From Promethearchaeum syntrophicum (lineage in GTDB: Archaea; Asgardarchaeota; Lokiarchaeia; Sigyniarchaeales; Promethearchaeaceae): 32,000 nucleotides of DNA. The notes under the pieces are model-generated. The model was not told the origin of the DNA, made no database searches, and saw only the letters and a program-made list of their open reading frames with translations. Positions 6,381 through 14,972 of the stretch are shown here, in pieces; position 1 is the stretch's first letter, and each line of letters starts with the position of its first letter. The stretch is taken from positions 1,290,001 through 1,322,000 of the forward strand of contig NZ_CP042905.2 of the NCBI RefSeq assembly GCF_008000775.2, written 5' to 3'. The position numbers were made by a program, and so were the translations under genes.

Positions 6381-6662
6381 ATAGAATTTTGTGAAGATTG
6401 CGGAAATATTTTATTGCCTAAGAAACGAAGCGACGAACTATTTTGTAAAATTTGTCAAAAATCTTTTCCTTTGAAGGAAAAAAAAGACAAAGAAAAGATC
6501 AAGCATTACAAAAGTGCTTCTGATGTAGTTAAAAAGACGAAGGCTAAAAAGAAATTAGCCTTAAAATCATCAACTATTATAGAAGAAATTCGCAAAGCAC
6601 CTTCAATTTCTCAAGATGAACGAGAAGCTTTCGGCGAATTATTTGAAATGAGTGGAGAATAA
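6381..6662 (+). CDS. Small zinc-ribbon protein (TFS / RpoM / Rpb9 N-terminal Zn-ribbon-like) with a Lys-rich tail; start codon unresolved
   Basis: The in-frame sequence upstream of the track's TTG start (6414) reads (I)EFCEDCGNILLPKKRSDELFCKICQ, a complete CxxC...CxxC ribbon matching the FCxxCGNLLxP pattern. The frame is open from 6357, with no ATG, GTG or TTG before 6414. ATA at 6381 is the candidate start. Confidence 0.6.
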   Translation: MEFCEDCGNILLPKKRSDELFCKICQKSFPLKEKKDKEKIKHYKSASDVVKKTKAKKKLALKSSTIIEEIRKAPSISQDEREAFGELFEMSGE

Positions 6663-7029: not shown

Positions 7030-7707
7030 TTAGAGAAAGAAATCACTATCATCATCTAAATCATCTTGATCATCAAAAGATTGAATATTAATGAATAAAT
7101 CATAATCAAAAATGTTTTGAATTAGTGAGCGGAGCGAATTTTTCACCATTTTTATATCTTTCATTCCAAGACCAATGATTTTAGAATTTGAGAAAATTAA
7201 AAATGTTCCTCCGGTTGGCGGTTTTACAATTGCAGCAGGAAATTGTTCAGGTTCATAAAGACAATTGGTTAAAGTTAAACAGGCCATTTCTAAATTTATT
7301 AAACGCTTCAATTGACTCATAACAACAAGATTTTGAATTTTAATTTGAAATTCAGTAAAATTAATTTCTGCTTTTGCTAAGCGATCTATAATTTTTTCTT
7401 TGATGCTTGGAATTTTTTTCTGTTCTTTAATGCCAGTTATAATGAGTTTCCCATTTCGGAACAAAATCACAGATATATTATCAATCTTAAACATTACACA
7501 AGGGAATCGATTTAAACGTTTTACCTCAATCCTTTTTTCTACTTCGTTAAAATCTATTCTTTTTTCCCCCTCTAATTCCAAAATACCTAATGCCACAATA
7601 TTAATGATTTTGTAAGGAAAGTTGCTATTTGCCTCATTCTCTTCAAATTCTTCAATTTCACCTGCGTAAACAGAAATTGTTTGGTCCGGGATTTCAAGAA
7701 GTGCCAT
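7030..7707 (-). CDS. Divergent TATA-box-binding protein paralogue with acidic N- and C-terminal extensions
   Basis: Two TBP repeats: NRFPCVMFKIDNISVILFRNGKLIITG and YEPEQFPAAIVKPPTGGTFLIFSNSKIIGLG. Acidic tail DDQDDLDDDSDFFL. The first repeat is much less canonical than in the paralogue at 11808-12521. Confidence 0.8.
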   Translation of the reverse strand: MALLEIPDQTISVYAGEIEEFEENEANSNFPYKIINIVALGILELEGEKRIDFNEVEKRIEVKRLNRFPCVMFKIDNISVILFRNGKLIITGIKEQKKIPSIKEKIIDRLAKAEINFTEFQIKIQNLVVMSQLKRLINLEMACLTLTNCLYEPEQFPAAIVKPPTGGTFLIFSNSKIIGLGMKDIKMVKNSLRSLIQNIFDYDLFINIQSFDDQDDLDDDSDFFL

Positions 7708-8238: not shown

Positions 8239-8661
8239 ATGGAAAAAATAAAAAAAATAGAAATTAAGCAAAAATTGAACGAACACAAACTGTGGCTTAA
8301 TGGAGAGGCTTCCTCCGGAAAACAAGCTGATTTTTCTGGACTGATGATTAAAATTGCTAATTTTCGAGAAGCTCAATTATCTAAGGCTAATTTCTCAGAT
8401 TCAATCCTAAAAATTGTTGAATTTGTAAAGGCTGATATGCAAAACGCGAATTTTCAAAATACTGAACTTATAAAAGTGGATTTTCATGATGCTAATATGA
8501 ATGGTGTAAATTTCAAAGGAACCAAGTTTCGGAAAGTACATATTAATGAAGAAGATTTCAATAAAATGCAGGATGAATTAACAGAAGATCAAAAACGGGG
8601 CATTATCACCTCATATAAGAAATTTATGCGAAAAATGATTTTTAAAAAAAAAATTCAATAA
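8239..8661 (+). CDS. Pentapeptide-repeat protein
   Basis: LNEHKLWLNGEASSGKQADFSGL, followed by tandem A(D/N)LxX-type pentapeptides (ANFREAQLSKANFSDSILKIVEFVKADMQNANFQNTELIKVDFHDANMNGVNFKGTKF). Confidence 0.85.
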   Translation: MEKIKKIEIKQKLNEHKLWLNGEASSGKQADFSGLMIKIANFREAQLSKANFSDSILKIVEFVKADMQNANFQNTELIKVDFHDANMNGVNFKGTKFRKVHINEEDFNKMQDELTEDQKRGIITSYKKFMRKMIFKKKIQ

Positions 8662-9297: not shown

Positions 9298-10371
9298 ATG
9301 TTCATGGACATAGGTAAAGCAATTGCTGAATTAAAAAAATTTATTGGCATTTTAGAGAAAAACTCTACATCCTCTTCATCTTCTTCAAAATTCATATTCC
9401 ATCGTTACCTTGGAGGGAATTTAGACTCAATAGACTCGAAAATAGGAGAGATATTCTTTATTTTACAATCTTCGATAACAATGTCTAAAGAAGGACTGAC
9501 TTCTACGGAAGTAAATAAAATTATAGACCATAAAATTCATTCTAATTCATTTTTACTACCCTCAGATTCAGAATTTACTCCAATTCTAAATTATTTTTTT
9601 AGAAATCGAGATGAATTTACTAAAGAACAAAATGAAATAATCTCATTTTTGCATGAAAAAATACAAAATCTTCAAAATTCTATCTGGATTGAAAATAGCA
9701 ACGTTTTTTCTTTTGGAAATAGGAATTCAATTCAACCTGATTGTACAATCAATTTTATGGAAAAAAATGATAATTTAGCGTTTATTTTCCAAATAAACAA
9801 TCTCAATTTACTATTCAATGAATCCAAAGAGATTAGTATTCTAAATAAAAAAATATCTCTTTTAAATAAAAAAATTGAGAGAAATCATCGAAAAGAAAAT
9901 GTTGAAAAAACATTTGAAGACAAGCAAGAATCCTACGAAAAAACTATCCAAAAATTAAACAATGATTTAATTTCTACAAAAAATGAATTCAAATCGAAAA
10001 TTGCTCAATTGTATCAAAATTTACAACGTATAGAATCTGAAAACGCAGAATCTATTTCAGAAAATAAGCAATTAAAACTTGAAAATCAAAATTTTCGGGA
10101 ATCAATTCAAAAATTAGAGGAAGAGTGTCAAAATTTAAAAGACGAAAAAGACGTTTTTAATGAAGAAAACGAGATGCTAAGAGAAAATATCGAAGAAAGT
10201 AACCTTAAGATTTCGGATTTATCGGAAGAAATAAAAAATCTTGAAATCTTAAATTCTGAACTCAAAAGTTCTAATACTGAACTTTCTGATAAAAATGAAG
10301 CACTTGAAGTTAAAATTAAAAAGAAAATCTTGAAGATCAAGGAAATCTTAAATGAATGGACGAGTAACTAG
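9298..10371 (+). CDS. Globular-head plus long C-terminal coiled-coil protein (paralogue A)
   Basis: The N-terminal ~185 aa are globular. Residues ~185-357 are continuous heptad-like E/K/N/L-rich sequence (KLENQNFRESIQKLEEECQNLKDEKDVFNEENEMLRENIEE...). TGAGGA abuts ATG 9298, so ATG 9304 has better Shine-Dalgarno spacing and is an alternative start. Confidence 0.7.
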   Translation: MFMDIGKAIAELKKFIGILEKNSTSSSSSSKFIFHRYLGGNLDSIDSKIGEIFFILQSSITMSKEGLTSTEVNKIIDHKIHSNSFLLPSDSEFTPILNYFFRNRDEFTKEQNEIISFLHEKIQNLQNSIWIENSNVFSFGNRNSIQPDCTINFMEKNDNLAFIFQINNLNLLFNESKEISILNKKISLLNKKIERNHRKENVEKTFEDKQESYEKTIQKLNNDLISTKNEFKSKIAQLYQNLQRIESENAESISENKQLKLENQNFRESIQKLEEECQNLKDEKDVFNEENEMLRENIEESNLKISDLSEEIKNLEILNSELKSSNTELSDKNEALEVKIKKKILKIKEILNEWTSN

Positions 10372-10382
10372 AGGTTATTAAT

Positions 10383-11798
10383 ATGACGCGTGAAGCAATC
10401 AATAAATTATATGATATTTATCAAAAAATTAATAGTTTTAAAAAAATCACTCCGGGATTTGGATTCTTTTTCAAACGTTATGAAATCAAAGGTAAGAATT
10501 CATTCTTACTTGTTGTTATGGAACCCCCTCATTATCGCACAAAAGGTAAACTCAAAGATTTTGAAAAAGTTATAAATAAAAGTCTTTCTCGTAATAAATT
10601 AATTTTACCGAAAGATTTCCCTTATCTTTACAATTATCTATTAACAGAATTCAATCAATATATTACACCTAGAGATGAAATTCTTAACAAAATAAAACGT
10701 ATAATTGCCAGTTTAAGATTAAACTTTTTTGAAGATACTAATATGAAATATTCCTTTATTTCTAGCATGTTCCCCGAGATTATTGTTTTTGATACGGTTA
10801 GTCAAAAAGGCCAATTTGCTATATATTTTAATATAGTAAATTTAGTTGAAGATGGTTTAATTTTAGCACATGAAAGGCAATTAAATTTTCTATACGAACA
10901 AATAGAAAGGGGAGTAAATCCAACAAGTATAGTTGATACAGATCTACCAGATTTACGTAGTGGAAATACAGCATTTTCATTCTCAAGAAATAAAAATAGA
11001 CAAAAATCCAGAGAAAAAAGGGGGGCTGTTAAAAAATTCCGACAAGTTGTTAATAAAAAGGTATCTAAAGAAGAAATTGAGACAGAACTTGATTACGAAA
11101 CAGTCATAGATTTCAATCCGAGTCAAAAAACAAAGAAAAATATTGGAAATGAAAAGAAATTAGTTAGAAAAGGATTATTTGGTCAACCTTTACCTGCTAG
11201 TTTGAAAAATAGTGAAAAAACCATACCACAATCTAAATCGGAACCTGTAACTGATCCTATACCTCCTATCGATTCTTCCGCACCCGATTTTAATGATCAA
11301 ACAATTATTACCAAGCAATCCAACCTTGCGGTACTTGAAGAGCTTGAGAAAAAAATTGATATTTTAGAGAAAGAAAATATTGATTTAGATGAGATTAAAG
11401 ATAAAAATGACCTTCTTGTTAACCAAATTACTCAAATTACAGATGAATTGACCACAAAACTCCAAGAAAAAGATAACCAATTAAAAGAAATAAAAATTCA
11501 GTTAGAGAAAGAACAGAATATTAGGAAAAACCTAGAAATTGAAATTCAGAGAATAGAACAAGAAAAAAATGTTGCTTTTGATGCAATAGAGGAGCAAGTT
11601 CAAGATTTAGTTGATGAAAACGCCTCCTTATTAAAATCTATTGAAAAAAATGAATTAACTCGAAAAGAATTGGAATTGATTATAGAAGAGATAAAAAATG
11701 CAAGAATTAAAGATGAAGAAATAAACAATGAAATTATTACTACATTGAAAGAAGAAATTCAAATTTTAAATAAAAAGATTAATAATGAAAGAGAGTAA
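10383..11798 (+). CDS. Globular-head plus basic/Pro-rich linker plus C-terminal coiled-coil protein (paralogue B)
   Basis: GAGGT Shine-Dalgarno-like motif 7 nt upstream of the ATG. The head aligns with paralogue A (FFFKRY/FIFHRY; LILPKDFPYLYNYLL/FLLPSDSEFTPILNYFF; FAIYFNIVNLV/LAFIFQINNLN). C-terminal ~160-aa coiled coil. Confidence 0.7.
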   Translation: MTREAINKLYDIYQKINSFKKITPGFGFFFKRYEIKGKNSFLLVVMEPPHYRTKGKLKDFEKVINKSLSRNKLILPKDFPYLYNYLLTEFNQYITPRDEILNKIKRIIASLRLNFFEDTNMKYSFISSMFPEIIVFDTVSQKGQFAIYFNIVNLVEDGLILAHERQLNFLYEQIERGVNPTSIVDTDLPDLRSGNTAFSFSRNKNRQKSREKRGAVKKFRQVVNKKVSKEEIETELDYETVIDFNPSQKTKKNIGNEKKLVRKGLFGQPLPASLKNSEKTIPQSKSEPVTDPIPPIDSSAPDFNDQTIITKQSNLAVLEELEKKIDILEKENIDLDEIKDKNDLLVNQITQITDELTTKLQEKDNQLKEIKIQLEKEQNIRKNLEIEIQRIEQEKNVAFDAIEEQVQDLVDENASLLKSIEKNELTRKELELIIEEIKNARIKDEEINNEIITTLKEEIQILNKKINNERE

Positions 11799-11807
11799 TG
11801 CATCCGC

Positions 11808-12521
11808 CTATAAATCTAAAATATCCAGATCTTTTTCTTCTTTCATCCCATTTTCTCCCAGAACGCCATTATCCTTAAGAGTAATTGCAAGTTTTTTTAC
11901 TGATTTTTTTATTATATCTTCGTTATTAGACCCAGTCACAATTATTCTCCCTGAGCTAAAAATTAAAAAACATATTTTTGGATCTGCAATCTTATAAATT
12001 AAACCTGGAAATACTTCAGGTTCATAGATGGCTGAGTCAAGAATCAATGATGTGATGTCTAAATTTATCGATTGGTGAAAATCTCCACGAACAACGATAT
12101 TTTCAATTTTAACAATAGGTTCTTCTTCAATTTTAATTCCGGCTTTCTCAATTCTGCCAACAATTTTGGAAACCACTATGGGAATATCTCTAGGCAATCT
12201 TACACCTGTACATACTAGCTTACCTGATGCAAAAATTAAGATTGTAGCTTTAGGTATATTAATTTTAGCAACTAGACCAGGGAAATTATTTTTTTTTTCA
12301 ATATCTTTGTATTTTTCTAGTATTTTTTCAAGAGAAAGTTCAATGCCTAAATTGATAGAGGCAACAACATTCTCAATTCGAAGAGAAACTTTGTTTTTCT
12401 TTGAAATTGAGCTTGTTTTTTGATCTTGAATGGATGTTTTTCCCAATAAATTCTCCCCTAAAATGGAAGTTTTTTTGAACGAATAAGGATTTGGGTTGAG
12501 AAAAATTGGAACTAGACACAT
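11808..12521 (-). CDS. tbp: TATA-box-binding protein (canonical archaeal TBP core, ~55-aa N-terminal extension, acidic tail)
   Basis: LRIENVVASINLG..., FPGLVAKINIPKATILIFASGKLVCTG, IENIVVRGDF..., YEPEVFPGLIYKIADPKICFLIFSSGRIIVTG. Tail EEKDLDILDL. The N-terminal start is uncertain; an internal TTG is possible. Confidence 0.9.
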   Translation of the reverse strand: MCLVPIFLNPNPYSFKKTSILGENLLGKTSIQDQKTSSISKKNKVSLRIENVVASINLGIELSLEKILEKYKDIEKKNNFPGLVAKINIPKATILIFASGKLVCTGVRLPRDIPIVVSKIVGRIEKAGIKIEEEPIVKIENIVVRGDFHQSINLDITSLILDSAIYEPEVFPGLIYKIADPKICFLIFSSGRIIVTGSNNEDIIKKSVKKLAITLKDNGVLGENGMKEEKDLDILDL

Positions 12522-12587
12522 CTGTTAAATATATGATTTTAAAATTAGAATCATAATTAATCAATTTTTTATTGAGAATCATTTGAA

Positions 12588-13121
12588 TTATTTTTCATCA
12601 ATTTCATTAATCAAAAAATCTGCAATATAGTTGAATATAGAATCAATATTTTCCCCCGATTTGGCTGAACTATAAAAAATTTTTGTATTTTTATAAATTT
12701 TCTCCAAATCTTCAATAGATTTTTGTAAATCTTTTAAATCTATAAGGTCAGACTTGTTTACTACGATAATATAAGGGCAATTTGGAGGGCTGTTTGCTTT
12801 AACATCTGTAATCCATGGTTCAATAAAATTTTTTGGCTCTAATCGATTTACATCTACAACAATAATTACCAGGTTAGCATGTTGGAGATAATGACTGCGT
12901 ATCTTCTCAAAATTTCTTTGTGAGGCAATATCCCAAACAACAAGGCCTAAATTTATCTCTTTATTATTTTGGAGGGATTTTTTCTCAATTTCATAAAAAT
13001 CACAGCCTAAGGTCATCAAATAACTATTGGAGAATGTTCCTTGAGTATACCTAATTATAATTGATGTTTTTCCAACACCATCGGAACCAATTAAACAAAT
13101 TTTTTTTTTCCAAGTTTCCAT
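12588..13121 (-). CDS. Rab/Ras-like small GTPase (177 aa, no C-terminal Cys lipidation motif)
   Basis: G1 GSDGVGKT. Switch I TLGCDF (Rab-like TIGxDF). G3 WDIASQ. G4 NKSD. G5 SAK. Confidence 0.9.
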   Translation of the reverse strand: METWKKKICLIGSDGVGKTSIIIRYTQGTFSNSYLMTLGCDFYEIEKKSLQNNKEINLGLVVWDIASQRNFEKIRSHYLQHANLVIIVVDVNRLEPKNFIEPWITDVKANSPPNCPYIIVVNKSDLIDLKDLQKSIEDLEKIYKNTKIFYSSAKSGENIDSIFNYIADFLINEIDEK

Positions 13122-13149
13122 TAAAAATTAACCATTTTTTTCTTTTTTT

Positions 13150-14643
13150 TTATACTATCGGAATCAAACTAATCTGCGGATAACCCAAAGAGAAATCGTT
13201 TTCCATATAATATAACTGTGTTCGGGGTTTTATTCCATATATAAAAATTGCACCGTTTTGTTCGAGAATCTTTAAATGGGTATCCGCCACATAAGATAAA
13301 TCATTTGTAAGTGTACCTAAAGGAGATGATGCATTGATTGCTGAACGTGTTGAATTTATTATGCCTAACTCTATTACATTACTATTTCTGATTTTCGTAA
13401 TATGTTCGTCGAATTTACTGATTGCTTTATTAAAATCTACCATAAAAGTTAAAGTATTATATGAAACTGCGGCAAAAACTGGTTGAAATTTCGTAATACT
13501 TGATAATTTTGCATACGTATCAAAAAAGATTTCGTTAAAATTCTCTTTGTCAATTTGTGTTATATATGGTCTTATTTCATTTCGATCTGATAATTTTTCC
13601 ATCAAAATTCGCATGTTTTTGCTTATCGCATCAGTTTTTAGATGTAAAAATAATCTTTTCTTATCAATCAATTCAGAATTTATACCGTCTGTTGTATGGA
13701 CAATTATACCTCGATTTTGCTGAATATAATTACATATCATCGCAATTACTATTGGAGAATATGATGTAATAGGTACATTAGATTCTATTTCTAAGAGATT
13801 AAATGTCCCTTGTTTAAGACCTCCATGATAAAGGCGATCTAAAGATTTATTTCCTGTTGAAAACAGATCATCTGTATCGGAAGTTGTATTCCAAGGAAGA
13901 ATTTCAGTGGGTTTAATATCTTGGAATGGTTTTAAATATTGAAATTTATTATTAAAGAGAGTAAAAACATATTTTTTTTGATTTCTCTCAATTGCTCGAA
14001 TTTTATTAACTTCAATGGTGCGAATAGTTCTTCCATCTACTGAATCATCACGAAGAGTAAAAATACCATCTACAATATAATCCAAAAATCCAATTTCATC
14101 AGATTCCGCGATTAATATCAGTTTGGCATTTGTTTGTCTAACGAATTCTGAAAAGAGAGTCTCAATATTTTCCTTATTTTCACCTTCTTGACCCATAATA
14201 GCATCCCATGAATCTATAACAATAATTGGATGTTCATATTGTGCAATTTTCTCATAGACTATTTTTAAAAATTCTGGAATAGAAGAAAAACGAATTGTTC
14301 TCATTAGATGGGCTTTCATTAGTGTTCCATCGGGATCTTGTCGATTGGCAGGAGGAATATATGTTCTTGTTGCATCAATAATGTTTTCAGTTTTTAACCG
14401 TTTTTTCAACCAAGGAAATTGAGAAAAAAGACTTAGGGGAGCTACTCTCGTGGATAAATAAATTGGCTCGAAATCCTTGAAAACATCAAGTAGAGTTAAA
14501 GCAAAGGTTGTTTTCCCTGCTCCCGCTTTCCCTTTAAGAAGGATATTATAGCCCGTATCTTTTAATTCGAAGGCATCCATGATTTCGGGAGGAATTATAT
14601 TTTTTCGATAAATCTTCGCACCCTTACTTTTTTTTGCATTCAT
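13150..14643 (-). CDS. Two-domain KaiC/GvpD/RAD55-family RecA-like ATPase (second domain lacks a P-loop)
   Basis: Domain 1 has Walker A GKAGAGKTT and Walker B-like IIVIDSWDAI. Domain 2 starts with STGNKSLDRLYHGGLKQGTFNLLEIESNVPITSYSP, which keeps the KaiC-like lead-in but has no GxxxxGK[ST]. Only 28 nt separate it from the GTPase gene, with no oligo-T. Confidence 0.75.
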   Translation of the reverse strand: MNAKKSKGAKIYRKNIIPPEIMDAFELKDTGYNILLKGKAGAGKTTFALTLLDVFKDFEPIYLSTRVAPLSLFSQFPWLKKRLKTENIIDATRTYIPPANRQDPDGTLMKAHLMRTIRFSSIPEFLKIVYEKIAQYEHPIIVIDSWDAIMGQEGENKENIETLFSEFVRQTNAKLILIAESDEIGFLDYIVDGIFTLRDDSVDGRTIRTIEVNKIRAIERNQKKYVFTLFNNKFQYLKPFQDIKPTEILPWNTTSDTDDLFSTGNKSLDRLYHGGLKQGTFNLLEIESNVPITSYSPIVIAMICNYIQQNRGIIVHTTDGINSELIDKKRLFLHLKTDAISKNMRILMEKLSDRNEIRPYITQIDKENFNEIFFDTYAKLSSITKFQPVFAAVSYNTLTFMVDFNKAISKFDEHITKIRNSNVIELGIINSTRSAINASSPLGTLTNDLSYVADTHLKILEQNGAIFIYGIKPRTQLYYMENDFSLGYPQISLIPIV

Positions 14644-14972
14644 ATATTACAAATTATAATTTTTATTGTGTTAAAAATCTTCAACATTAATTTTAAGTAA
14701 AAAATTATTGAAAATATCTATTTTTTTCTGGTTATTTTAATTCTTATAAGCGTTCATTTGCGAATTATCAAAATTTTTTCTAAGAATATCGATTTAGTTT
14801 GGCTATTTTTGATCAATTAATCTTATTAAATTCATAGAAACCACTTTCTAAGGATTTTAATTAGAAGTTTTTTCTTTCATTTTTGTAATCGCGATTAATT
14901 ATTCACTTTATTTTGAAATTACTGTTTAATCTTGTTGTAAAAAAATTAATAAAATGCACAATTTACAAATTT

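What the first reader, a model, noticed from the sequence alone, without database searches (positions are those of the whole stretch)
12588..14643. KaiC/GvpD-like double RecA ATPase co-transcribed with a Rab-like GTPase, upstream of a TBP gene
Seen in the sequence: on the minus strand the 497-aa ATPase gene stops 28 nt before the GTPase start, with no oligo-T tract between them. The GTPase stop is 66 nt from the TBP start (12521), again without a T-run.

The ATPase has an intact first RecA-like domain (GKAGAGKTT; IIVIDSWDAI). Its second domain keeps the KaiC-type lead-in (STGNKSLDRLYHGGLKQG) but replaces the P-loop with NLLEIESNVPITSYSP, so it is probably catalytically dead.

Established knowledge: archaeal KaiC/GvpD/RAD55-family ATPases act as signal-transduction or regulator-turnover modules. 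GvpD, for example, controls the amount of a transcription activator.

Inference: a RecA-like ATPase paired with a eukaryote-like small GTPase, sitting next to a general transcription factor paralogue, is an unusual combination. It could be a nucleotide-switch regulatory module. I know of no described KaiC-like/Rab-like pair.
Basis: partly seen in the sequence, partly recalled or inferred. Interest (0 to 1): 0.65.

Follow-up and report, generated by a model that had tools for sequence, protein, structure and literature searches.

The report
GvpD-like ATPase paired with Rab-like GTPase
In a Lokiarchaeial (Asgard) genome, a full-length relative of the haloarchaeal regulator GvpD is followed within 28 bases by a soluble Rab-like GTPase; this pairing recurs in about nine related lineages, I found no description of it, and it gives one Asgard small GTPase a testable candidate partner.

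Summary
The ATPase (13150-14643, minus strand) is a full-length GvpD homologue with two KaiC-like domains. The first keeps Walker A and B but has S-T-R in place of KaiC's catalytic Glu-Glu. The second has no P-loop, and this holds across the whole GvpD family. The GTPase (12588-13121) is Rab-like, has no prenylation cysteine, and reads DIASQ where DxxGQ is expected.

The ATPase-GTPase adjacency, with gaps of 3-34 nt, occurs in 10 contigs (about nine lineages) spanning 42-91% ATPase identity. I recovered it starting from either gene. It survives where both flanks differ. It is absent from 34 distant GvpD-like loci.

The TBP link is weaker. The true TBP start is probably TTG 12446, which makes the gap 141 nt rather than 66. 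The TBP is the canonical type, not a divergent paralogue, and it is linked in only some clades. Other Lokiarchaeia carry a Rag-like GTPase gene between the Rab-like gene and the TBP gene.

Best reading: a conserved two-gene regulatory module. The GvpD-type ATPase acts on or with the protein encoded just downstream, as GvpD does with GvpE, and the output may be transcriptional. The mechanism is inferred, not shown. I rate it a new variant of a known kind, of moderate interest.

The parts
14671..14682 (-). Candidate promoter element (GAAGATTTTTAA; the TATA-like TTTTTAA lies 28-34 nt upstream of the ATPase ATG)
   Evidence: It is the best-conserved block in an otherwise 59%-identical intergenic alignment with L011 and L012. 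Its function is inferred only.
13150..14643 (-). GvpD-family ATPase, 497 aa, with two tandem KaiC-like domains
   Evidence: ORF. PF07088 scores 68.3 bits against a cutoff of 24. It aligns with Halobacterium GvpD over aa 19-497, E 2e-21. AF2 pLDDT is 87, and Foldseek matches full-length KaiC at E 1.5e-21.
14506..14532 (-). Walker A / P-loop, GKAGAGKTT (aa 38-46)
   Evidence: G38, G41, G43 and K44 are invariant in 52 family members and in H. salinarum GvpD.
14446..14454 (-). S-T-R motif (aa 64-66) in the position of KaiC's catalytic Glu-Glu
   Evidence: The HMMER alignment to KaiC CI puts FEE opposite STR. R66 is invariant in 52 members. S-T-R is invariant in the alignment that includes real GvpD.
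14197..14226 (-). Walker B region, IIVIDSWDAI (aa 140-149)
   Evidence: D144 and S145 are invariant.
13753..13800 (-). Second-domain site where a P-loop would be: NLLEIESNVPITSYSP (aa 282-297), with no GxxGxGK[ST]
   Evidence: Alignments A1, the family alignment and A5. A more distant KaiC-type relative, P0067, keeps GMTGTGKST here.
13122..13149 (-). 28-nt ATPase-GTPase spacer (11% GC, with a T5 run directly before the ATG)
   Evidence: The orthologous spacers are 3-34 nt in 10 contigs.
12588..13121 (-). Rab-like small GTPase, 177 aa, no C-terminal cysteine
   Evidence: Ras 8e-30 and Roc 2e-27. The best PDB sequence matches are Ypt6, Rab35, Rab1, Rab6 and Thorarchaeota Rab.
12918..12932 (-). 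Atypical G3 / switch II motif D-I-A-S-Q (aa 64-68), with Ser where Ras has Gly60
   Evidence: Alignment with H-Ras and nine orthologues. WDxASQ is found in the window, L011, L012, L001, L061, L062 and L063. The canonical WDLAGQ is found in L004, L005 and L010.
12447..12587 (-). Probable true GTPase-TBP spacer (141 nt). It contains a TATA-like TTTTAAAA at 12537-12544 and most of a conserved 51-nt block (12444-12494) that ends in an AGGGGAG SD-like motif (12453-12459) and the TTG start
   Evidence: DNA alignment with L011 and L012 and motif coordinates. The promoter and 5'UTR reading is inferred.
11808..12446 (-). Canonical-type TBP ('TBP-A'), 212 aa from TTG 12446. The 237-aa ORF from ATG 12521 is probably over-extended
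   Evidence: Pfam TBP 4e-43. It scores 145 bits, full length, against P. woesei TBP. All four DNA-intercalating Phe positions are present, read from the sequence. A 212-aa form is on record from the same 4.32-Mb contig.
7030..7707 (-). Divergent second TBP ('TBP-B'), part of the conserved wider neighbourhood
   Evidence: Pfam TBP 70 bits. It scores 81 bits against P. woesei TBP with a poorly matching first repeat. Orthologues sit near the pair in L001, L010, L011, L012 and L061-L063.
6414..6662 (+). Small Zn-ribbon ORF, possibly TFS/RPB9-like, next to TBP-B
   Evidence: phmmer links it to the Zn-ribbon ORFs of L010, L005, L012, L061 and L011. The L005, L010 and L061 genes carry weak Zn_ribbon_RPB9 hits. 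The window ORF itself has no Pfam hit at 1e-3.

Best explanation
The ATPase and GTPase genes form a conserved two-gene unit, very probably co-transcribed, that is specific to Lokiarchaeia. It encodes two coupled nucleotide switches.

The ATPase is a true GvpD-family protein. Its N-terminal KaiC-like domain can bind ATP: it has Walker A and B and the Lys/Arg pair that aligns with KaiC's inter-subunit residues, which suggests an oligomer. It lacks KaiC's catalytic glutamates. The C-terminal KaiC-like domain has no P-loop.

The GTPase is a soluble Rab-like switch, not prenylated, whose switch II glycine is replaced by serine in this clade.

I propose that the ATPase acts directly on or with the protein encoded immediately downstream of it. 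That is how haloarchaeal GvpD behaves: it binds GvpE, which is encoded 2 nt downstream, and lowers its amount in a P-loop-dependent way. Under this proposal the ATP state and the GTP state gate one another.

The most likely output is regulatory and may be transcriptional. Other branches of the same ATPase family sit next to HTH regulators. In Lokiarchaeia the pair lies in a conserved island with a Rag-like GTPase gene, the canonical TBP gene, a second TBP and a possibly TFS-like Zn-ribbon gene.

Shown: homology, architecture, motif states and conserved adjacency. Inferred: co-transcription, physical interaction, direction of control and the transcriptional output.

My sub-confidences are about 0.85 that the pair is a conserved functional unit, about 0.45 that the two proteins partner directly, and about 0.25 that the output is a transcription factor or TBP.
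For: GvpD identity:
- PF07088 scores 68.3 bits against a cutoff of 24.
- All 52 aligned relatives hit PF07088, and 31 of 52 hit GvpD_bR2.
- The only plasmid-database hits are 18 haloarchaeal records, 17 of them annotated as gvpD. The best aligns over aa 19-497, E 2e-21.
- The P-loop, S-T-R, DSW(D/E), E180, GR..R...K.RG, the second-domain lead-in and the C-terminal motifs are shared with H. salinarum GvpD.
- The fold is two KaiC-like domains.

Pair conservation:
- The GTPase lies directly downstream in the window, L011, L012, L001, L004, L005/6 and L010.
- Starting from the GTPase gave the same result in Lokiarchaeum ossiferum, Harpocratesius and a Promethearchaeia MAG.
- Gaps are 3-34 nt, and ATPase and GTPase pairwise identities track each other (r = 0.96).
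- In the 42-47% identity clade both flanks differ but the pair persists.
- None of 34 distant GvpD-like loci has any small-GTPase ORF, even when searched with a profile HMM.
This is a heuristic.

Partner encoded next door:
- In pNRC100, gvpD is followed 2 nt later by gvpE.
- GvpD binds GvpE and lowers its level, and this needs the P-loop and an Arg-rich region (PMC4390858).
- Among distant loci, 8 of the 20 with full flanks (11 of 34 in all) have an adjacent small wHTH gene.
- The Lokiarchaeial clade without the GTPase has an AsnC-type HTH gene directly upstream.

Transcription island:
- TBP-A follows the pair in the window, L011, L012, L005, L010 and L061.
- The Rag-like gene to TBP-A gaps are 12, 14 and 40 nt.
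- TBP-B and the Zn-ribbon gene are nearby.
Against: - There is no direct evidence of interaction or co-transcription. No multimer prediction or RNA data were available.
- No ATPase-GTPase fusion appears among the listed homologues of either protein.
- One Lokiarchaeial clade (P0019, P0024) has the ATPase without the GTPase.
- All pair-bearing genomes belong to one class, so part of the conservation could be inherited gene order.
- TBP linkage is absent in the Harpocratesius clade, whose canonical-type TBP is on another contig, and in L004.
- In the window, TBP-A probably has its own promoter and 5'UTR.
- Loss of KaiC's catalytic glutamates leaves it open whether the ATPase hydrolyses ATP at all.
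- Rab-like proteins usually suggest membrane traffic rather than transcription.
Confidence: 0.45

Rival explanations
1. Trafficking or cytoskeleton module. The Rab-like GTPase does what eukaryotic Rabs do, marking a membrane or scaffold, and the GvpD-like ATPase is its effector, chaperone, GAP or GEF. There is no link to transcription, and the neighbouring Rag-like genes belong to the same GTPase network.
For: The best PDB sequence matches are Ypt6, Rab35, Rab1, Rab6 and Thorarchaeota Rab. Two Rag/Gtr1-like genes flank the pair in L001 and L061-L063. A Helarchaeota relative of the ATPase lies two genes from a Roadblock-Ras fusion. The window holds a weak Roadblock-like ORF 13 kb away.
Against: None of the 10 orthologues has a C-terminal cysteine for prenylation. 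No membrane, longin, TRAPP or DENN genes are in the unit. The only member of the ATPase family that has been characterised acts on a transcription activator. Other branches of the family pair with HTH genes.
Confidence: 0.2
2. Inherited gene order with no functional coupling. The two genes simply have not been separated within Lokiarchaeia.
For: All pair-bearing contigs are from one class. Other neighbours, such as the Succ-CoA-ligase-like gene, the coiled-coil genes and TBP-B, are also syntenic among the closer genomes. One clade lacks the GTPase.
Against: The spacers stay at 3-34 nt across 42-91% ATPase identity. In the distant clade (L004, L005, L010) the upstream genes are replaced, and in L004 the downstream genes too, yet the pair persists. 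Lokiarchaeial neighbourhoods here show inversions and gene loss around the pair, such as the loss of the Rag-like gene and the flipped orientation of TBP-B.
Confidence: 0.1
3. KaiC-like autokinase or timer hub. The ATPase autophosphorylates and cycles like KaiC, and the GTPase acts as an output or input protein.
For: KaiC is the best structural and PDB-sequence match, and PF06745 scores 7.7e-13.
Against: KaiC's catalytic Glu-Glu is replaced by Thr-Arg. The second domain, which is the autokinase domain in KaiC, has no P-loop. No KaiA or KaiB family was hit by the window ORFs scanned against Pfam. The global TM-score is only 0.37, so the domains are arranged differently from the KaiC stack.
Confidence: 0.07
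4. Rad55/RadA-type recombination mediator, as some databases name relatives of this protein ('RAD55 family ATPase'). The GTPase would be unrelated.
For: Source annotations call close homologues 'RAD55 family ATPase'. The fold is RecA-like.
Against: Specific full-length homology is to GvpD, not RadA. The window ATPase hits no RecA or Rad51 Pfam family, and neither family is among the 24 matched by any of the 52 relatives scanned. No DNA-repair genes are in the neighbourhood.
Confidence: 0.03

Closest known systems
GvpD of Halobacterium salinarum and Haloferax mediterranei (gas-vesicle repressor; Pfam PF07088 + PF20440)
   Same: Homology runs end to end (aa 19-497, 22% identity, E 2e-21). The architecture is the same: a P-loop KaiC-like domain followed by a P-loop-less second domain. 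The S-T-R motif, the GR..R...K.RG basic stretch and the C-terminal motifs are shared. In both cases a partner gene lies immediately downstream: gvpE at 2 nt, and here the GTPase at 28 nt.
   Different: There is no gas-vesicle cluster and no gvpE. The downstream gene is a small GTPase rather than a bZIP-like activator. The haloarchaeal acidic insertion of about 55 aa is missing. The window protein's own bR2 match is below Pfam's cutoff (17.9 against 27.9 bits).
KaiC (cyanobacterial clock ATPase/autokinase) and archaeal single-domain KaiC-like proteins such as ArlH
   Same: It has two tandem RecA/KaiC-fold domains. Walker A and B and the Lys/Arg pair in the first domain align with KaiC CI.
   Different: The catalytic Glu-Glu is replaced by Thr-Arg. 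The second domain has no P-loop. The domain arrangement differs (TM 0.37, rmsd about 19 Å). There is no KaiA or KaiB.
Asgard Rab-like GTPases, e.g. Thorarchaeota Rab (PDB 7ezb), and the LAMTOR1-like / Rab-like / DENN operon described for Asgard archaea (bioRxiv 10.1101/2020.10.19.343400)
   Same: It is a small Ras-superfamily GTPase with its best matches among Rabs. It is a second example of an Asgard Rab-like gene sitting in a conserved operon-like unit.
   Different: The partner is a GvpD-family ATPase, not a Roadblock or DENN protein. Switch II reads DIASQ. There is no prenylation site. Tran et al. note that small GTPase genes of the cultured Lokiarchaeon MK-D1 generally lack operon partners.
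Eukaryotic Rag/Gtr GTPases
   Same: In most other Lokiarchaeia the pair is followed by, and in one clade also preceded by, Gtr1/RagA-family genes.
   Different: The window itself has no Rag-like gene. No Ragulator or TOR components were seen. The Rag-like gene is tightly followed by a TBP gene, which has no eukaryotic parallel that I know of.

Membership tests
GvpD family (PF07088 GvpD_P-loop + PF20440 GvpD_bR2) | N-terminal GvpD P-loop domain above Pfam's gathering score | tested here: met
   68.3 bits against a cutoff of 24, E 1.1e-18, covering profile positions 4-187 of 189.
GvpD family (PF07088 GvpD_P-loop + PF20440 GvpD_bR2) | C-terminal GvpD_bR2 domain above the gathering score | tested here: not met
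   The window protein scores 17.9 bits against a cutoff of 27.9. However, 31 of 52 aligned relatives match at E <= 0.001, and the C-terminal half aligns with real GvpD. The domain is therefore homologous but divergent.
GvpD family (PF07088 GvpD_P-loop + PF20440 GvpD_bR2) | Full-length similarity to experimentally studied GvpD | tested here: met
   tblastn aligns aa 19-497 with H. salinarum gvpD, E 2e-21. All 18 plasmid hits are haloarchaeal, and 17 are annotated as gvpD. Shared motifs are shown in A5.
GvpD family (PF07088 GvpD_P-loop + PF20440 GvpD_bR2) | Genomic context: gvpE downstream and a gas-vesicle (gvp) cluster | tested here: not met
   No Gvp family was hit by the window ORFs scanned against Pfam. 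For contrast, pNRC100 has gvpACN / gvpDEFGH.
GvpD family (PF07088 GvpD_P-loop + PF20440 GvpD_bR2) | P-loop-dependent lowering of a partner transcription factor's level | not testable with these tools
   Known for GvpD and GvpE (PMC4390858). It needs experiments here.
KaiC | Two tandem RecA-like domains | tested here: met
   Foldseek aligns 497 columns to full-length KaiC, E 1.5e-21.
KaiC | Walker A in both domains | tested here: not met
   The second domain has NLLEIESNVPITSYSP instead.
KaiC | Catalytic Glu-Glu after beta-strand 2 | tested here: not met
   KaiC's FEE aligns with S-T-R, and R66 is invariant in the family.
KaiC | NCBIfam circadian KaiC equivalog score | tested here: not met
   27.5 bits against a cutoff of 408.
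Rab family small GTPase | Ras-superfamily G domain with G1, G4 and G5 motifs | tested here: met
   GSDGVGKT, NKSD and SAK are present. Ras 8e-30.
Rab family small GTPase | Canonical G3 motif DxxGQ | tested here: not met
   The window and six orthologues have WDxASQ (DIASQ in the window). It is canonical only in the L004/L005/L010 clade.
Rab family small GTPase | C-terminal Cys prenylation motif | tested here: not met
   None of the 10 orthologues has a C-terminal cysteine.
Rab family small GTPase | Closest solved relatives are Rabs | tested here: met
   The top PDB hits are Ypt6, Rab35, Rab1a, Rab6 and Thorarchaeota Rab.
Archaeal TBP | Two TBP repeats, full-length match to archaeal TBP, four intercalating Phe | tested here: met
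   Pfam finds two stretches, 4e-43. It scores 145 bits against P. woesei TBP. NFPGL, LIFASGK, VFPGL and LIFSSGR are read from the sequence. NCBIfam equivalog cutoffs are not reached (176 against 270 bits).

The most novel reading that the evidence does not exclude
Lokiarchaeia have a dedicated cassette made of a GvpD-type ATPase, a Rab-like GTPase and a Rag-like GTPase. It controls the availability or activity of the general transcription factor TBP, or its divergent paralogue. [quoted passage not shown] The ATPase would work as an ATP-dependent factor-turnover or sequestration machine, as GvpD does for GvpE.
Probability: 0.12. Interest if true: 0.85.

Novelty: new variant of a known kind. Interest (0 to 1): 0.55.

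Why it matters
Asgard archaea encode dozens of eukaryote-like small GTPases, yet almost nothing is known about their partners, and gene context rarely helps (PMC10933270). A conserved partner encoded 3-34 nt away gives one Rab-like orthogroup a concrete, testable interactor. The result also takes GvpD out of its gas-vesicle niche. It shows a broad archaeal family of GvpD-like ATPases whose neighbouring gene changes by lineage: GvpE, small wHTH proteins, an AsnC-type regulator, or a GTPase. That pattern suggests a general 'ATPase plus client protein' logic. If the nearby Rag-like and TBP genes turn out to be part of the same circuit, it would be an unexpected link between GTPase signalling and basal transcription.

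Tried and rejected
- Collection scans. The metagenome scan with an alignment was swamped by the P-loop pattern and returned only distant relatives at 20-31% identity. I used those loci as an outgroup instead.
- T-run and terminator reasoning. T5+ runs occur 7.5 times per kb on this strand and ten times inside the ATPase gene, so I dropped it as evidence either way. The sigma-70 and intrinsic-terminator scanner was not used because it does not apply to archaea.
- Literature. The key review on archaeal KaiC-like ATPases (Makarova et al. 2017) is not in the library. I cannot exclude that the GvpD-like family or its neighbourhoods are discussed there.
- Structure of the coiled-coil neighbour. A single-sequence AF2 run on the N-terminal domain (10383-10985) gave pLDDT 35.6 and is unusable.
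- Fusion search. None of the listed homologues of either protein carries both domain types.
- RNA features. There are no Rfam families or tRNAs in the window.
- Rejected readings. A KaiC clock is rejected on the missing Glu-Glu and second P-loop. Rad55/RadA is rejected on specific full-length GvpD homology. A gas-vesicle function is rejected because there are no gvp genes.
Full report
**Observation.** The ATPase-GTPase spacer is 28 nt, and the quoted motifs are present.

Two details need correcting. First, the 28-nt spacer does contain a T5 run, at 13123-13127. T5+ runs occur 7.5 times per kb on this strand, ten of them inside the ATPase gene, so oligo-T carries no information here. Second, the 66-nt GTPase-TBP gap depends on ATG 12521, and several results point to a later start:
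- The ATG is not conserved in the two closest genomes.
- A 212-aa form of the protein is on record from the same 4.32-Mb contig, and it corresponds to TTG 12446.
- That TTG is preceded by AGGGGAG, inside a conserved 51-nt block at 12444-12494.

The likely spacer is therefore 141 nt. It holds a TATA-like TTTTAAAA at 12537-12544, so TBP may well have its own promoter. That last point is an inference.

**Organism.** The window is 26-38% GC. Its proteins lie on a 4,324,194-bp contig. The nearest genomes are MAGs named Promethearchaeum sp., at 91% ATPase identity.

**The ATPase.** Sequence evidence for GvpD identity:
- Pfam gives GvpD_P-loop (68.3 bits, cutoff 24) ahead of KaiC (48.8 bits), plus a sub-threshold GvpD_bR2 hit in the second half.
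- All 52 aligned relatives hit GvpD_P-loop, and 31 hit GvpD_bR2.
- A tblastn search against PLSDB plasmids returned 18 haloarchaeal records, 17 of them annotated as gvpD. The window protein aligns over residues 19-497 at 22% identity, E 2e-21.
- Aligned with the experimentally studied H. salinarum GvpD from pNRC100, it shares the P-loop, an S-T-R motif, DSW(D/E), a conserved Glu (E180), the basic stretch GR..R...K.RG, the second-domain lead-in FSTG..LD..GG, the P-loop-less stretch after it, and C-terminal motifs.

Structural evidence:
- The AF2 model (pLDDT 87.2, pTM 0.85) matches full-length KaiC over all 497 columns at E 1.5e-21.
- The global TM-score is only 0.37. Both domains are KaiC-like, but they are arranged differently from the KaiC stack.

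Two features qualify 'intact first domain, dead second domain'. KaiC's catalytic Glu-Glu aligns with Thr65-Arg66, and R66 is invariant. The missing second P-loop is a trait of the whole GvpD family, not of this protein alone. NCBI names some relatives 'RAD55 family ATPase'; the specific homology does not support that name.

**The GTPase.** Ras scores 8e-30. The best solved relatives are Ypt6, Rab35, Rab1, Rab6 and the Thorarchaeota Rab. G1, G4 and G5 are canonical. G3 reads DIASQ, with serine where Ras has Gly60. The window and six orthologues share this change, while the L004/L005/L010 clade keeps DLAGQ and carries an insertion of roughly 30 aa. None of the orthologues has a C-terminal cysteine, so the protein is probably soluble. 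From general knowledge of Ras, changes at Gly60 impair the GTP-driven switch II movement. What the serine does here is unknown.

From the ATPase side, the GTPase orthologue lies immediately downstream in:
- L001, a 4.36-Mb Lokiarchaeial genome;
- L004, L005/L006 and L010;
- L011 and L012.

From the GTPase side, three orthologues at 49-53% identity each sit 14-17 nt downstream of a GvpD-like ATPase. They come from Lokiarchaeum ossiferum, Harpocratesius sp. and a Promethearchaeia MAG.

Across the 10 contigs (about nine lineages, since L001 and L062 are 99% identical) the spacers are 3-34 nt. ATPase and GTPase pairwise identities co-vary (r = 0.96 over 45 non-independent pairs). In the clade with 42-47% ATPase identity the upstream genes are different, and in L004 the downstream genes are too, yet the pair stays. 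That is a heuristic only.

The exception is one Lokiarchaeial clade (P0019, P0024). It has the ATPase but no GTPase, and has an orthologous AsnC-type HTH regulator directly upstream instead.

As an outgroup I used the 34 distant GvpD-like loci with a clear ATPase match (E < 1e-20), out of the 48 returned by the metagenome scan. None has any small-GTPase ORF, even when searched with a profile HMM. Eight of the 20 with full flanks (11 of 34 in all) have an adjacent small wHTH gene of about 114 aa.

**Wider neighbourhood.** The commonest Lokiarchaeial layout is:

Rag-like-2 <- Succ-CoA-ligase-like <- | -> ATPase -> Rab-like -> Rag-like-1 -> TBP-A | <- coiled-coil <- 142-aa protein <- TBP-B, often with a Zn-ribbon gene that gives weak RPB9-family hits.

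- The Rag-like-1 to TBP-A gaps are only 12, 14 and 40 nt. The Rab-like to Rag-like-1 gaps are 50-465 nt. This suggests two sub-units.
- The window's lineage has lost Rag-like-1, so the Rab-like gene now abuts TBP-A.
- TBP-A is the canonical-type TBP (145 bits against P. woesei TBP, four intercalating Phe). TBP-B at 7030-7707 is the divergent copy (81 bits).
- TBP linkage is not universal. In the Harpocratesius clade the locus lacks TBP-A, and a canonical-type TBP sits on another contig.

**How it most likely works.**

Shown:
- a bona fide GvpD homologue;
- a soluble, atypical Rab-like GTPase;
- tight adjacency, conserved in a lineage-specific way.

From the literature:
- GvpD binds the activator GvpE and lowers its amount.
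- This needs GvpD's P-loop and an Arg-rich region.
- GvpD oligomerises.
- GvpE binds TBP and TFB in vitro (PMC4390858).

In pNRC100, gvpE starts 2 nt after gvpD.

Inferred: GvpD-family ATPases act on a client protein encoded next to them. The client is GvpE in haloarchaea, small wHTH or AsnC-type regulators in other branches, and the Rab-like GTPase in Lokiarchaeia. The pair would then be two coupled nucleotide switches, with the GTPase as either client or gate of the ATPase. A transcriptional output is plausible, given the family precedent and the TBP, TBP and Zn-ribbon island, but it is unproven.

My confidences are about 0.85 for a conserved functional unit, about 0.45 for direct partnering, and about 0.25 for a transcription-factor output.

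**Rivals:**
- a Rab-style trafficking or cytoskeleton module with the ATPase as effector (0.2);
- inherited gene order without coupling (0.1);
- a KaiC-like autokinase hub (0.07), which is disfavoured by the missing Glu-Glu and second P-loop;
- a Rad55/RadA-type recombination role (0.03).

**Novelty.** No held paper combines Asgard, KaiC, GTPase and operon, and none links GvpD to Asgard biology. Asgard GTPase studies describe a LAMTOR1-like / Rab-like / DENN operon. They also state that small GTPase genes of the cultured Lokiarchaeon MK-D1 generally lack operon partners among roadblock, longin and TRAPPC3 genes. The main review of archaeal KaiC-like ATPases could not be read, so prior mention there cannot be excluded.

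Each component belongs to a known family. The association is what appears new, together with the wider pattern of GvpD-like ATPases with lineage-specific neighbouring clients. I rate it a new variant of a known kind, interest 0.55.

Noticed in passing
window 7030-7707 (-) and 6414-6662 (+): A second, divergent TBP gene lies about 4 kb from the canonical one, beside a small Zn-ribbon ORF. TBP-B scores 70 bits on Pfam and its first repeat is poorly matched, yet it is about 90% identical to its L012 orthologue. Some orthologues of the Zn-ribbon ORF give weak RPB9-family hits. Both genes recur near the ATPase-GTPase pair in other Lokiarchaeia.
   Followed up: partly
L061 7774-9780; L005 8260-10280; L010 8533-10501: In three lineages a Gtr1/RagA-like GTPase gene (430-460 aa) is followed by the canonical-type TBP gene after only 12-40 nt. 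It looks like a Rag-like/TBP operon. The window lineage has lost this Rag-like gene.
   Followed up: partly
window 12444-12494 (-): A 51-nt block upstream of the probable TBP-A start is conserved among the window, L011 and L012. It ends in an AGGGGAG SD-like motif and the TTG start. It could be a 5'UTR or regulatory element.
   Followed up: partly
window 9298-10371 (+) and 10383-11798 (+): Two adjacent genes, convergent on TBP-A, each encode an uncharacterised N-terminal domain followed by a long coiled coil. The N-domains are paralogous (22% identity, E 2e-4). Orthologues of 560-630 aa hold the same position in L001 and L061-L063. There is no Pfam family, and single-sequence AF2 failed with pLDDT 35.6.
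   Followed up: partly
L017-L038 (metagenome loci), e.g. L018 9589-9933, L030 4043-4381, L035 131-451: In a high-GC, non-Asgard branch of the GvpD-like family, a winged-helix gene of about 114 aa (HTH_20/TrmB-like) sits directly next to the ATPase. This is seen in 8 of the 20 loci with full flanks, and 11 of 34 overall. It resembles the gvpD-gvpE arrangement.
   Followed up: partly
L002 5146-5754; L064 5174-5920; L065 737-1597; L004 978-1511; L010 440-1637: An orthologous AsnC-type HTH regulator accompanies the Lokiarchaeial GvpD-like ATPase. It is directly upstream in the clade that lacks the GTPase, and about 4.5 kb upstream in L004 and L010. In L064/L065 the downstream gene encodes a leucine-rich-repeat protein.
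   Followed up: partly
L007 1947-5246 (Helarchaeota MAG): A more distant GvpD-like ATPase lies on the same strand two genes after a Roadblock-Ras fusion protein, with a CYTH-domain gene in between. The GTPase association may therefore extend beyond the strict pair.
   Followed up: no
L008 1-7347 (Syntropharchaeia MAG): A GvpD-like ATPase sits on the same strand, three small ORFs beyond an archaellum gene cluster: archaellins, a KaiC-like ArlH-type gene, and ArlI- and ArlJ-type genes (T2SSE, T2SSF).
   Followed up: no
window 14671-14682 (-): GAAGATTTTTAA is conserved 28-39 nt upstream of the ATPase ATG in the window and L011, and partly in L012. It would fit a BRE/TATA element driving a leaderless or short-leader mRNA.
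   Followed up: partly
window 26127-26507 (+) and 26607-28781 (+); window 8239-8661 (+): A weak Roadblock/LC7-like ORF (E 2e-4) is followed by a 724-aa VWA-domain protein. A 140-aa pentapeptide-repeat protein lies between the coiled-coil genes and TBP-B.
   Followed up: no
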